A DNA stretch of 64,000 nt from assembly GCA_012295275.1 (NCBI GenBank), contig CM022670.1:7068001-7132000 (forward strand), given 5' to 3'. This document shows, piece by piece, positions 5,139 to 63,717 of this stretch. Every line of letters begins with the position of its first letter. Within the stretch, counting starts at the first letter, position 1. The position numbers were made by a program, and so were the translations under genes. This DNA is from Chrysomallon squamiferum. Taxonomy: Eukaryota; Animalia; Mollusca. The notes under the pieces are model-generated. The model saw nothing but the letters and a program-made list of their open reading frames with translations. It had not been told where the DNA came from and ran no database searches.

Positions 5139-5486
5139 TCAAAAGTCTTTTTCACATTTTGTAACTGTCGTCTGTAGAGGCGAGTTCGAGTGAGCATGCG
5201 CAGATGTGACAGGAAGTAAAATGTGATGATGGGAATGCCCAGAAGGCCCTGTTTGGATTGGCGGTGACTGTGATGTTGGTTTTATGTCATAATGATTCTG
5301 TGTTTGTTGCATTGACTGGTGATGTGTTGCCATTGACAACATTGGAGCCTGAAGCGCCATCTGGTTCATCTGGTGTTGGACAGGGGGAGGTGACTCTGGT
5401 TCGATTTTTCCGGAAGTCTGAAAGCCTTCTTCTTTCTTCTTAACTTTCCTTTCTTTTGCACGTCGATTTTGAAACCAAATTTTCAC
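5139..5486 (-). CDS. Cdx: Cdx exon 3 (helix 3 and Q/H/P/S-rich tail)
   Basis: Acceptor ttttcag|GTG AAA ATT TGG ([14 protein letters not shown]); ends CEKDF*. Confidence 0.96.
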   Translation of the reverse strand: MKIWFQNRRAKERKVKKKEEGFQTSGKIEPESPPPVQHQMNQMALQAPMLSMATHHQSMQQTQNHYDIKPTSQSPPIQTGPSGHSHHHILLPVTSAHAHSNSPLQTTVTKCEKDF

Positions 5487-8400
5487 CTGAAAAGTATACA
5501 AAATTTTAAAATTATTTTATAAGTATTAATTACTGTAATATATACATTGGTTCAACTAAATATCTGACAAAGATGCAGTAACATACTTGTTAACACTCAT
5601 CTTTATGCATACCTCAAACAAATTATACAGAGAGAGAAAACCCCCAAATAGATATATCTGATAAATATATAGCAACAAAATTAAATGAAAATATATTTGT
5701 GTGTGTGTGTTGTATGCCAGAGAGAGAGAGAGAGAGAGAGAGAGAGAGAGAGAGAGAGAGAGAGAGAGAGAGAGAGAGAGAGAGAGAGAGAGAGAGAGAG
5801 AGAGAGAGTTAATCTAAATGCATGACAACAAAACGACGTACCTGTCTTTCTGAAAGTTGAAGTTGATTGGCTAACTCGGCTTTTCTTCTGATGGTGATAT
5901 AACGACTGTAATGAAACTCTTTTTCCAGTTCCAACCTCTGGTGGTCGGAGTAGACCACGCGATACTTGTCTTTGGTTCGTGTCTTACCTAGATAGAAAAA
6001 CAAAAATTATTTTAAAAATGTGTTCAATAGTGAAAGTAAAAAGAAATACAGAATAACGAAACGAAAGAGCGTACAATGAAGAAAAAATTAAAATAAATTT
6101 AAATATTTAATTTTTCTTTAGAATTACAGTAGTCGTAGTGGAAGAAATAGTAGCAGCAGTAGTAATAGCAGAGAAGTAGTCGTAGTCGTTGTAGTAATAC
6201 ATATAACAACAATAATATTAATGATAATGATGACTGCGATAGTGACGATAATAATAATAATAATAATAATAATAACAACAACAACAACAACAACAACAAC
6301 AATAGCAACAACTACAATAGTAATAATACTTCTATAACAAACAAATACCAATAAAATATCAAATATAAATTAAAAAGAAACAAATGATGCGAAGACAGCA
6401 AAATCGTACAGGAAAAAGTATTTTAATAAATAAATAAATACGACAGAATGTACTTTAAAATTACTTTGTGTAGTTCATTGTGTTGGTACATCTTTGTACC
6501 CAGTGTTTGCTGTAACACAAACAGAACCGCTTACTGTTAGTTTACTAAAACACCACAACCAGCCTGTAGCACAACACTGAGACTTTCTAATTACGTTTTC
6601 CTCAGCAGTATTATGTTAAAATAGGTAAGGAGATAAATATATTTCCCGGAGGTCTGAGCGTCATCCCCAAAGACTGCACCCAAGACATGATGGCGTCTAC
6701 GTATCCCTGGGGAGAAGGAATTAGTCGAGTGTGTGTGTAACTAATTTTTTTTTTTTTACTAATTTGGTCATATTCATTACGAAAATTGTACTATTTTTTA
6801 TTTATTTTTTTTTTAATGCTATACTTCAATGGAATTGTAAAAATGATGCAGATTGTTTTAATATAAAATCCATACACATTTGTATGTTCACCTGCACACT
6901 AGCATGATAATGAAAACTAAAAAAAAAAAAAAATAAAAAAAAAAAAAAAAAAAAAACATCAACACTTCTGATATACAGAAAAGAAATTAAATTAATTTAC
7001 ATACAAAATATAAAAATAAATAAATTACAGTAAACTGTAATAAACGTCTAGACAGTTATTCATTTTATTTATATCCATTGTCGACAATGAAAATTAATTT
7101 TATTTTCAGTGTAGAGGAAGTAACTGTTATTGTTTTTCTTAAGAAAAAAAGTTTTAGCTCAAAGTTAAAGACAATGCTAAATACAAAAATAATAATGAAA
7201 GATCCATGTTATTATCAACGATATTCACACAAATCCCAGCAACCAAAAAACACATCAATAAATGAAGAATCAGTTTATCTCTAAAACCACAGTCAAGTTC
7301 TTCAGAAAAATATTTAGAAATTTTCTACAAATATTTAATAATAACTGGATTAACTTTGCCATCAAAACCTGTACATACTGAACTATCTCGTTCTAATGTA
7401 TTCCAAATCGACTGCAGAGAGATCACAAACCTAGTAATTACAAAGTGTATAATTAATCATTCTGAAACGTGTTTTCTATCAAAACCACCGAAACATCGTA
7501 AACCCTTTTAACCAACGATATCTTATCCACCTTTAATTACAAACTGACTACAAAACCAGGTACCCACTTTACCACCAAAAAGTCCTTCATCTTCTCGATA
7601 ATACAAGCTGCAGAATAACCATTTTATAATTAATATTTCTTAAACTATCCTATAATTAATAAATGCAAAAAAAACCCATTAAAACAAGCCGACGATTTTT
7701 TTTTTGTACCTCGTCTACGGTAAGGTTATAATTATTTATAATTTTGCCGAGATTTGAGAGAAAGACAAAACAAAAAACGAACGATAATTAAAGGTGGCGG
7801 AATGTTTACGACGATACTGCACAAAGCGACGTAACGGGCTCTTTAGAACAGGCGCTGTAAGTAAAGCACCACGTGTGCACGGAGAAACAATCGGTGGCGA
7901 AAGAGAAAACAAAACTCCATCTGAACGGTATCGGTTCTTTTAATCTAGACGTCGCCTTTTCAAACGGACGGGTAACGCATTGAACTGCTGCCTTTTATTT
8001 GTCACCTAACGACAATTCCATGTGTACTTTTCACAACCACGCACAATAGCGCTGGAAGTAACAGGCAGCCGAGGACCCGCCCTCGCTCCTCGGTAATCGC
8101 TCTTAATGAGATTTGGATGATCCTCGCTCCAGCGGCCCGTGACCACTTATTTAGGCAGCAGCATCCCCGTGCTCCTTGATCTCTCGTTTCTTTTACTTAT
8201 CCACACAATGGGTCAGCATAAGGCTGGACGTAGCCGGGCCGTGCGATGACCACTGATGACCAATGATTCACAGACGCGGCGAGATCAGATAAAACACGTT
8301 TGATCGCCGGGTTACTCAACATTGAGTCAGAAAACGACGTCTGCTGAAGAAAATGGAAGGGTGTTTTTTTTTTTTTTTTTTTTCTACCACTAACCCTGTG

Positions 8401-63400: not shown

Positions 63401-63717
63401 TTATTTATTTGTTTATCTCTGCACAGATCCAGACCACCTGTTTGTCCCGACAGGTAAAGAGCCGTTTCCACTTCTGATTACTGTGACGATCGGCAAGCGA
63501 AGTGTCATCCCCTGTCTGGTCACTGACCCAGACCTCAGTGTCCAGCTGGTCAAGACGACGGGCAATCAAGTGGTCAGTCACATGGACGGGGTCAAGTACG
63601 AACCCCAGACTGGTTTCATTATTGAATACCCGAACTACTTCTTTGGAGGAACGTTCCACTGTCGTGCAGAGACAGAGAACATCACAGATGAACTCTACGT
63701 CTTCCTGCAGTATTACC
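42418..63717 (+). CDS. PDGF/VEGF receptor-family tyrosine kinase (Pvr/VEGFR-like), 5' part only: signal peptide, Ig1, Ig2; continues beyond the window
   Basis: Exons 42418-42481, 56718-56869, 62479-62653 and 63427-63717 join in phase (1, 0, 1). Ig1 has DPYI...[19 protein letters not shown]...DTGLYTC...SVYIYV. Ig2 has DPDHLFV...[15 protein letters not shown]...YEPQTGF...FHC, which matches the PDGFR/VEGFR domain-2 signature IPCxxTxPxxxVxL...YxxxxGF. The kinase domain is not in the window. Confidence 0.87.
42517..42586. repeat. (CT)n at the start of receptor intron 1
   Basis: Perfect run. Confidence 0.95.
45570..45675 (+). mobile_element. Degenerate interspersed repeat (SINE-like body)
   Basis: Shares tttttccattcca and tataa(a)agatt-cttg with the reverse complement of 26631-26730; weaker look-alikes lie near 26890-27000 and 52210-52285. 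Confidence 0.35.
47321..47430. repeat. 40-bp direct repeat with 70-bp period
   Basis: agtgagttaatt(a/g)taaata(c/g)taagagatggagagagagag at 47321-47360 and 47391-47430. Confidence 0.8.
52600..53460. repeat. Compound (CA)-rich tract followed by a (GT)n tract
   Basis: CA-rich 52600-53170, about 120 bp spacer, GT-rich 53289-53460. Confidence 0.92.
54340..54810. repeat. Degenerate (CA/TA) simple repeat
   Basis: Visible low-complexity tract. Confidence 0.9.
56718..56869 (+). CDS. Receptor exon 2 (Ig1 N-half)
   Basis: atttcag|[55 protein letters not shown]|gtgaat. Frame absent from the ORF track. Confidence 0.82.
56895..57217. repeat. (CATA)n/(CA)n/(GT)n/(GATA)n compound repeat
   Basis: Visible runs. 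Confidence 0.9.
58427..58504. repeat. (CT)n microsatellite
   Basis: Perfect run. Confidence 0.95.
59231..59302 (-). mobile_element. Possible degenerate tRNA-derived SINE head
   Basis: Minus strand contains cgtggttaa...gagttcaaactc with tRNA-like A/B-box spacing; no intact cloverleaf. Confidence 0.35.
60433..60690. repeat. (AG)n with degenerate purine-rich tail
   Basis: Visible run. Confidence 0.92.
62479..62653 (+). CDS. Receptor exon 3 (Ig1 C-half)
   Basis: [13 protein letters not shown]...[32 protein letters not shown]. Confidence 0.88.
62700..63385. repeat. (TTTTA)n and (ATT)n tracts filling receptor intron 3
   Basis: Visible low-complexity tracts. Confidence 0.9.
63427..63717 (+). CDS. 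Receptor exon 4 (Ig2)
   Basis: gcacag|AT CCA GAC...[16 protein letters not shown]...[12 protein letters not shown]...HCRAE...QYY C|gtaagt. Confidence 0.9.

What the first reader, a model, noticed from the sequence alone, without database searches (positions are those of the whole stretch)
5139..63717. Invertebrate ParaHox neighbourhood Cdx - IGHMBP2 - POMP - PDGFR/VEGFR mirrors human 13q12
Seen: Cdx lies about 25 kb from POMP and about 29 kb from a PDGFR/VEGFR-family gene. Established: human 13q12 carries GSX1-PDX1-CDX2-URAD-FLT3-PAN3-FLT1-POMP, and the paralogous ParaHox loci on 4q12 and 5q also carry class III/V receptor kinases. Inference: ParaHox + POMP + receptor is a bilaterian-ancestral microsyntenic block kept in compact form here. 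The POMP-receptor pair is inverted relative to Cdx, because in human the receptor lies between CDX2 and POMP. IGHMBP2 occupies the position where chordates have URAD.
Basis: partly seen in the sequence, partly recalled or inferred. Interest (0 to 1): 0.8.

Follow-up and report, generated by a model that had tools for sequence, protein, structure and literature searches.

The report
Snail keeps ancient ParaHox gene neighbourhood

Summary
Confirmed. The window holds four intron-split genes: Cdx (-), IGHMBP2 (-), POMP (-) and the first four exons of a VEGFR/PVR-type receptor (+). Closest named relatives are from the gastropod Gigantopelta aegis (Cdx 85%, receptor 65%), where Cdx and the receptor lie on a contig of the same length. 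Each link is already published elsewhere: POMP beside the ParaHox pair in corals and anemones, FLT1 beside Cdx in a hemichordate, receptor kinases beside vertebrate ParaHox loci. My ten literature searches found no protostome case. Best reading: an old neighbourhood kept by slow rearrangement, with POMP-receptor moving as one unit, likely tied by a shared promoter. IGHMBP2 is probably a later insertion, unrelated to URAD. Limits: the kinase lies outside the window, gene order was not tested in a second mollusc, the Cdx-POMP stretch was not checked with reads, and POMP exon 2 has a one-base frame break. Interest moderate.

The parts
12982..13459 (-). Cdx coding exon 1 (start codon at 13459; hexapeptide region at its end)
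   Evidence: 85% identical to G. aegis XP_041357730.1
5842..5987 (-). Cdx exon 2, homeodomain helices 1-2
   Evidence: PF00046 E 1.2e-11; AG/GT ends
5139..5486 (-). Cdx exon 3, helix 3 and C-terminus with stop
   Evidence: PF00046 E 4.9e-06
13460..25247 (.). 11.8-kb flank 5' of Cdx without a detected gene, not CpG-depleted; likely Cdx regulatory DNA (inferred)
   Evidence: no Pfam match above cut-off, no Rfam match, CpG observed/expected 0.86-1.36 in the 2-kb bins
25248..34373 (-). IGHMBP2/SMUBP-2 helicase gene, about 16 coding exons; probably a later insertion
   Evidence: PF21138, PF13086, PF13087, PF01424, PF01428; start, stop and exon contexts
38706..41342 (-). POMP exons 2-6 (41342-41246, 40677-40617, 40261-40160, 39785-39692, 38773-38706); one-base frame break near the end of exon 2
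   Evidence: UMP1 PF05348 E 5.6e-08 and 2e-07; model and splice ends
41771..41804 (-). POMP exon 1 as far as assembled; its last three bases are the start codon
   Evidence: RNA contigs of X8 and X9 leave the DNA at 41771 and go on in POMP exon 2; GT donor and AG acceptor
41805..42120 (.). 316-bp gap between the assembled 5' ends of POMP and the receptor; predicted shared (bidirectional) promoter
   Evidence: tables 7-8; spanned by DNA contigs of X4 and X2; CCAAT and TATA-like words present, not evidence of function
42121..42481 (+). Receptor exon 1: 5' UTR of at least 297 nt and signal peptide (start codon 42418)
   Evidence: RNA contigs of 4,138 and 5,302 nt begin here and splice to exon 2; tblastn with P0001
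56718..56869 (+). Receptor exon 2, first half of Ig domain 1
   Evidence: 68% to P0001; splice join seen in RNA
62479..62653 (+). Receptor exon 3, second half of Ig domain 1
   Evidence: 60% to P0001
63427..63717 (+). Receptor exon 4, Ig domain 2 (ligand-binding type); the gene runs on beyond the window
   Evidence: PF21339 E 2.5e-12; PDB matches to CSF1R and VEGFR1 domain 2

Best explanation
Cdx, POMP and a VEGFR/PVR-type receptor gene sit within 29 kb in this gastropod-like genome, with POMP and the receptor transcribed back-to-back from ends at most 316 bp apart; the trio is likely a neighbourhood inherited from the bilaterian ancestor, and the pair is likely held together by one shared promoter. 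Shown: gene identities, order, strands, the two spliced first exons, and DNA contigs across the POMP-receptor junction. Inferred: (1) the receptor carries a kinase beyond the window and is the single invertebrate pro-orthologue of vertebrate FLT1/KDR/FLT4 and PDGFR/KIT/CSF1R/FLT3; (2) the linkage survived mainly because rearrangement here was slow; (3) a break between POMP and the receptor would cut both promoters, so when an inversion changed their order against Cdx (in this lineage or in deuterostomes) they moved as one unit; (4) IGHMBP2 came in later, outside Cdx's gene-free 5' flank.
For: Same partners in three other lineages: anthozoan ParaHox pair flanked by POMP, hemichordate FLT1 next to Cdx, receptor kinases at vertebrate ParaHox loci. 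Neighbours lie on Cdx's 5' side, as in human (recalled). G. aegis Cdx and VEGFR both lie on a contig of 102,884,749 bp. The receptor fragment groups with G. aegis, Patella and Octopus VEGFR-like kinases (SH-aLRT 100, 97, 100); the orthologue's kinase scores best on VEGFR2 and VEGFR1 kinase chains (355, 345 bits) over PDGFRA (308) and FGFR1 (up to 309). Spliced RNA contigs and DNA contigs of two studies at the head-to-head junction. Ancient conserved gene pairs are mostly 5'-5' and enriched for gaps under 1 kb (PMC3514665, passages). CpG depletion starts at the IGHMBP2 body (0.19-0.44) and spares the Cdx domain (0.77-1.36), fitting separate regulatory domains.
Against: Gene order was not seen in any second protostome; for G. 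aegis only a shared contig length is known, and the two accession numbers are 2,102 apart, which says nothing on distance. In Platynereis the 230-kb Cdx contig lists four other genes on the 3' side and repeats on the other, and the paper's main text has no POMP, Flt or VEGF. Most mollusc ParaHox clusters are broken. The Cdx-IGHMBP2-POMP stretch was not checked with reads. Both RNA runs are of one study and contigs do not show start sites. Human FLT1 and POMP are divergent but roughly 160 kb apart (recalled), so a shared promoter cannot explain the pair in mammals. POMP exon 2 has a frame break in this assembly. The tree has ten rows, no outgroup, and is the quick version.
Confidence: 0.72

Rival explanations
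1. Genomic regulatory block: Cdx (or other ParaHox) enhancers lie in or beyond IGHMBP2, POMP or the receptor's 14-kb first intron, and that keeps the genes together.
For: The receptor's long first intron and Cdx's gene-free flank could hold enhancers; such blocks are a known cause of old microsynteny (PMC3514665 and PMC2723086, passages).
Against: An inversion and an inserted helicase gene were tolerated between Cdx and the pair; the receptor introns are CpG-depleted (0.20-0.48 in bins from 42 to 62 kb), unlike the Cdx domain; no conserved non-coding element could be tested.
Confidence: 0.12
2. Chance re-association: the genes share an ancestral chromosome and came together again by intrachromosomal shuffling.
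For: Mollusc ParaHox regions are often rearranged; the scan reads very many windows; with a generous neighbour list P reaches 0.01-0.1.
Against: Two specific published neighbours, on the expected side of Cdx, adjacent to each other and in the human head-to-head orientation; P about 3e-4 to 2e-3 for that adjacency and orientation alone.
Confidence: 0.1
3. Assembly artefact joining Cdx to the POMP-receptor pair at one of the many microsatellites.
For: 170 tandem-repeat rows in 64 kb; a one-base frame break in POMP shows that the assembly or haplotype is not error-free; the Cdx-POMP interval was not read-checked.
Against: No N or gap; the POMP-receptor junction is spanned in two studies; G. aegis has Cdx and the receptor on a contig of the same length; a random misjoin would not rebuild a known neighbourhood.
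Confidence: 0.04

Closest known systems
Human/vertebrate ParaHox A locus, 13q12 (GSX1-PDX1-CDX2-URAD-FLT3-PAN3-FLT1-POMP; order and strands recalled; Prhoxnb and Flt3 flanks in coelacanth, PMC4471637 passages)
   Same: Cdx with a VEGFR-class gene and POMP on its 5' side; POMP and receptor divergent
   Different: Order POMP-receptor reversed against Cdx; one receptor instead of a tandem set; no URAD or PAN3 in the window; IGHMBP2 inserted; pair about 0.3 kb apart instead of about 160 kb (recalled)
Ptychodera flava ParaHox cluster with FLT1 next to Cdx (PMC3698058, passages)
   Same: Invertebrate Cdx beside the single VEGFR-like gene, without PRHOXNB
   Different: Deuterostome; receptor directly next to Cdx; POMP was not among the terms I looked up there; intact three-gene cluster shown, here unknown
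Anthozoan ParaHox pair flanked by POMP and CD027 (PMC6214176, passages; Hui et al. 2008 seen only as a reference entry)
   Same: POMP as a close ParaHox neighbour
   Different: No receptor named in the passages read; Gsx plus an Xlox/Cdx-like gene rather than a true Cdx
Conserved ancient microsyntenic pairs with bidirectional promoters, e.g. HSPE1-HSPD1 (PMC3514665, passages)
   Same: 5'-5' orientation, gap under 1 kb, old linkage
   Different: Partners here are a housekeeping chaperone and a developmental receptor, not co-working proteins; the human pair is not compact; the paper's pair list (supplement) could not be read, so POMP-FLT1 may be in it

Membership tests
Cdx/caudal (ParaHox) | Cdx-type homeodomain preceded by a hexapeptide, intron before helix 3 | tested here: met
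   PF00046; exon structure; 85% to G. aegis Cdx-like protein and 43-46% to five other mollusc Cdx proteins
POMP/UMP1 | UMP1 domain PF05348 | tested here: met
   two exons above the curated cut-off
POMP/UMP1 | Intact reading frame | tested here: inconclusive
IGHMBP2/SMUBP-2 | 1B domain, Upf1-like helicase, R3H and AN1 zinc finger in this order | tested here: met
   (R3H below the curated cut-off, 21.5 vs 26.8 bits, on a partial exon)
VEGFR/PVR (class V receptor kinase) | Signal peptide and VEGFR-type Ig domains 1-2 | tested here: met
   PF21339; 65% over 227 aa to G. aegis VEGFR-like protein; PDB domain-2 matches
VEGFR/PVR (class V receptor kinase) | Seven Ig domains, membrane helix and split tyrosine kinase | tested here: inconclusive
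   outside the window; the orthologue P0001 has a ~770-aa Ig ectodomain and a kinase; RNA contigs from exon 1 are 4,138 and 5,302 nt
VEGFR/PVR (class V receptor kinase) | Groups inside the PDGFR/VEGFR clade in a rooted tree with Pvr and FGFR | tested here: inconclusive
   ten-row quick tree without outgroup or Pvr; groups with mollusc VEGFR-like rows apart from fish PDGFRs
Intact ParaHox cluster | Gsx and Xlox linked on Cdx's 3' side without intervening genes | not testable with these tools
   only 5.1 kb of 3' flank in the window, no homeobox there; no whole genome held
Chordate-type ParaHox flank | URAD/PRHOXNB next to Cdx | tested here: not met
   no such Pfam match among 144 segments scanned from 1-25 kb and the 11 scanned
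Bidirectional promoter pair | Divergent genes with 5' ends under 1 kb apart | tested here: met
   316 bp between assembled ends, 645 bp between start codons
Bidirectional promoter pair | Shared elements drive both directions; correlated expression | not testable with these tools
   contigs give no start sites or levels; needs CAGE and a reporter
Conserved microsyntenic block | Same neighbours in a second, distant protostome | tested here: inconclusive

The most novel reading that the evidence does not exclude
The snail order Cdx-POMP-VEGFR, with POMP and the receptor on one bidirectional promoter, is the ancestral bilaterian arrangement: POMP also flanks the ParaHox genes directly in anthozoans and seems to lie beside caudal in the fly, so the inversion that put the receptor next to Cdx happened on the deuterostome line, and the FLT1-POMP pair of human 13q12 is a stretched relic of a promoter that once tied proteasome assembly to VEGF/PVF signalling.
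Probability: 0.25. Interest if true: 0.65.

Novelty: new member of a known kind. Interest (0 to 1): 0.42.

Why it matters
It adds a protostome witness to the reconstruction of the ParaHox neighbourhood: the Cdx-VEGFR link, published for vertebrates and a hemichordate, would go back to the bilaterian ancestor, and the seed of the vertebrate PDGFR/KIT/FLT/KDR clusters would have stood beside Cdx for over 550 million years. The compact head-to-head pair offers a testable reason why POMP and the receptor stayed together, and a 316-bp element to test. It changes no principle: the kind of conservation and both single links are known.

Tried and rejected
No whole genome was held, so flanking Xlox, Gsx, PAN3, CHIC and the kinase exons could not be sought. 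A homologue search with one POMP exon found no candidate, so POMP could not be placed in other molluscs. Patella caerulea VEGFR (SNE40_016054) and Cdx locus tags of other molluscs were obtained but never for the same species. Metagenome scan with a Cdx alignment: 79 loci, 410 kb, 31 of them 5 kb or longer; tblastn with POMP, IGHMBP2 and three VEGFR queries hit 0 of 79; too short to count against linkage. Extra genes: weak Pfam hints (TSR2-like antisense to the receptor UTR E 0.023, PsiA 0.031, BACOVA_N 0.0045, DUF7230 0.044) are all below cut-off and rejected; 0 of 93 segments in the receptor introns matched; a recalled Bora-like look at 36450-36557 had no Pfam match and the Atlas gave no answer. 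Rfam: 0 matches. Repeats are microsatellites and AT-rich runs in the families shown. A kinase-less PDGFRL-like gene was considered and is unlikely given the full-length orthologue and long RNA contigs. Literature searches without a protostome Cdx-POMP-VEGFR report: (listings). Passages without bearing: PMC13508932, PMC7305137, PMC3710244, PMC4244043, PMC2020491, PMC2414870. Figures and the supplement of PMC3514665 could not be seen and may hold such neighbours; subscription papers such as Hui 2008 and Ferrier 2005 were not searched.
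Full report
What is there. The window is AT-rich animal DNA without N, dense in microsatellites. Four genes were found. Cdx lies on the minus strand in three exons (13459-12982, 5987-5842, 5486-5139) with AG/GT ends and one open frame of 323 residues, with a homeodomain. IGHMBP2 follows on the minus strand from 34373 to 25248, its 1B, helicase, R3H and AN1 domains in the right order on successive exons; it is documented exon by exon only. 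POMP is also on the minus strand, six exons from 41804 to 38706, with UMP1 matches on two of four segments scanned. A receptor gene starts on the plus strand at 42418; four exons give a signal peptide and two Ig domains in one frame of 227 residues and the gene leaves the window. No further gene was detected: 144 segments from 1-25 kb gave one weak match below cut-off, 93 from the receptor introns none, 20 from the IGHMBP2-POMP interval and POMP one weak match, and Rfam none. These segments were pre-filtered for length and complexity, so very short exons could be missed.

Organism and orthology. The best named matches are from the gastropod Gigantopelta aegis: its Cdx-like protein XP_041357730.1 is 85% identical and its VEGFR-like protein XP_041359832.1 65% over the 227 residues. 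Both are recorded on a contig of 102,884,749 bp, so probably one chromosome; their distance is unknown. The G. aegis receptor is a 1,383-residue kinase with a long Ig ectodomain; among solved kinase chains it scores best on VEGFR2 and VEGFR1 (355 and 345 bits), ahead of PDGFRA (308) and FGFR1 (up to 309), while full-length KIT chains top the list at 367 because they also match outside the kinase. In a ten-row quick tree without outgroup the window fragment joins G. aegis, then Patella, then Octopus VEGFR-like rows, apart from fish PDGFRs. Brunet et al. (PMC4898815, passages) find one Vegfr-like gene in non-vertebrate deuterostomes, duplicated in tandem on the vertebrate stem; the snail gene is therefore inferred to be the pro-orthologue of both vertebrate classes.

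The head-to-head pair. Contigs of two RNA runs (one study) and two other runs (two studies) were laid on 41480-42510. Both RNA runs hold a contig that leaves the DNA at 41771 and continues in POMP exon 2; the donor is GT, the acceptor AG, and the exon ends in the start codon. Both also hold long contigs (4,138 and 5,302 nt) that begin at 42121 or 42142, run through the signal-peptide exon and continue in receptor exon 2. The assembled 5' ends are thus 316 bp apart and the start codons 645 bp. Contigs do not show true start sites, but these can only lie at or beyond the assembled ends, so the genes are tightly divergent. One contig of run X4 spans the whole stretch and one of X2 spans 41734-42510, so this junction is not a misjoin. 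The Cdx-IGHMBP2-POMP stretch has no such check.

One blemish. Spliced as the RNA and the AG/GT ends require, POMP is one base short near the end of exon 2; exons 3-6 are open. A degenerate copy of the same stretch just inside the intron carries the extra base. An assembly indel is the likely cause, since the gene is spliced and otherwise conserved; this was not checked with reads.

Is the neighbourhood more than chance? Under full shuffling of a linkage group of 500-1000 genes, two of three neighbours falling in a list of ten has P about 1e-3 to 3e-4; over all settings tried the range was 2e-5 to 0.1; adjacency plus head-to-head orientation of the named pair alone is 3e-4 to 2e-3. These are rough and uncorrected for the scan. 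The stronger argument is that the same partners are published elsewhere: POMP flanks the ParaHox pair in corals and anemones (PMC6214176, passages); FLT1 lies next to Cdx in the hemichordate Ptychodera, where PRHOXNB does not (PMC3698058, passages); coelacanth ParaHox loci are flanked by Prhoxnb, Flt3 and Pdgfra (PMC4471637, passages). The human order and strands are recalled: FLT1 and POMP divergent, on CDX2's 5' side. Fly pomp overlaps varicose, which lies in deficiency 38E6-38F3 (PMC2575209, passages); that caudal maps to 38E is recalled and was not confirmed. Against: the Platynereis Cdx contig shows other neighbours, and that paper's main text has no POMP, Flt or VEGF (PMC2723086, passages); most mollusc ParaHox clusters are broken (PMC7566022, passages); my own attempts to see the order in a second protostome failed or were uninformative.

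How it most likely persists. CpG is not depleted over the Cdx domain (0.77-1.36 in 2-kb bins up to 26 kb) nor in the IGHMBP2-POMP interval (0.98-1.06), but is over the bodies of IGHMBP2, POMP and the receptor (0.19-0.48), the pattern expected (general knowledge) of an unmethylated developmental gene beside methylated gene bodies. Cdx keeps an 11.8-kb gene-free flank. An inversion and an inserted gene were tolerated between Cdx and the pair, so that link looks like slow rearrangement rather than a hard constraint. The pair itself fits the commonest class of ancient gene pairs, 5'-5' with a short gap (PMC3514665, passages): a break in 316 bp would likely damage both promoters, so the two move together. 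This step is inferred, and it cannot hold for mammals, where the gap is large (recalled). Confidence in the whole 0.72; regulatory block 0.12; chance 0.10; misassembly 0.04.

Novelty. The kind of thing is known and each link is in print for other phyla. Ten searches of the held library found no protostome Cdx-POMP-VEGFR report and none tying IGHMBP2 to ParaHox loci; figures, one supplement and subscription papers were not visible. An earlier unchecked note of this scan reports caudal beside URAD in an arthropod, a lead that other ParaHox neighbours also survive in protostomes. The boldest reading left open is that the snail order is the ancestral one and deuterostomes inverted the pair (0.25). 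Verdict: real, a new member of a known kind, interest 0.42.

Noticed in passing
window 41246-41342 and 41170-41245 (-): POMP exon 2 is one base short of the frame needed downstream, and a degenerate copy of its 3' part lies just inside intron 2 with the extra base present.
   Followed up: partly
window 42121-42417 (+): The receptor's 5' UTR holds eight upstream ATGs with short open frames of 2-15 codons; run X9 has a 9-base deletion at 42390.
   Followed up: no
window 1-26000 versus 26000-62000: Sharp CpG boundary: no depletion over the Cdx domain and the IGHMBP2-POMP interval, strong depletion over the three other gene bodies, including the receptor, a developmental gene.
   Followed up: partly
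window 34374-38705: 4.3-kb interval between the IGHMBP2 start and the POMP end with undepleted CpG and a few GC-richer patches; no Pfam or Rfam match above cut-off.
   Followed up: partly
window 41804, run X8 record 6: The POMP contig carries 31 foreign letters at its 5' end that look like a tRNA fragment (recalled resemblance); probably a chimera in one contig.
   Followed up: no
L012:9417-9694 (+) and 17692-17030 (-): A metagenome contig holds two Cdx-type homeobox genes facing each other tail-to-tail about 7 kb apart.
   Followed up: no
L010, L011, L013-L015, L017-L019, L022, L024, L027: Several metagenome loci carry strongly diverged Cdx-like homeodomains (52-68% to the snail one), suggesting extra caudal paralogues in some animal.
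   Followed up: no
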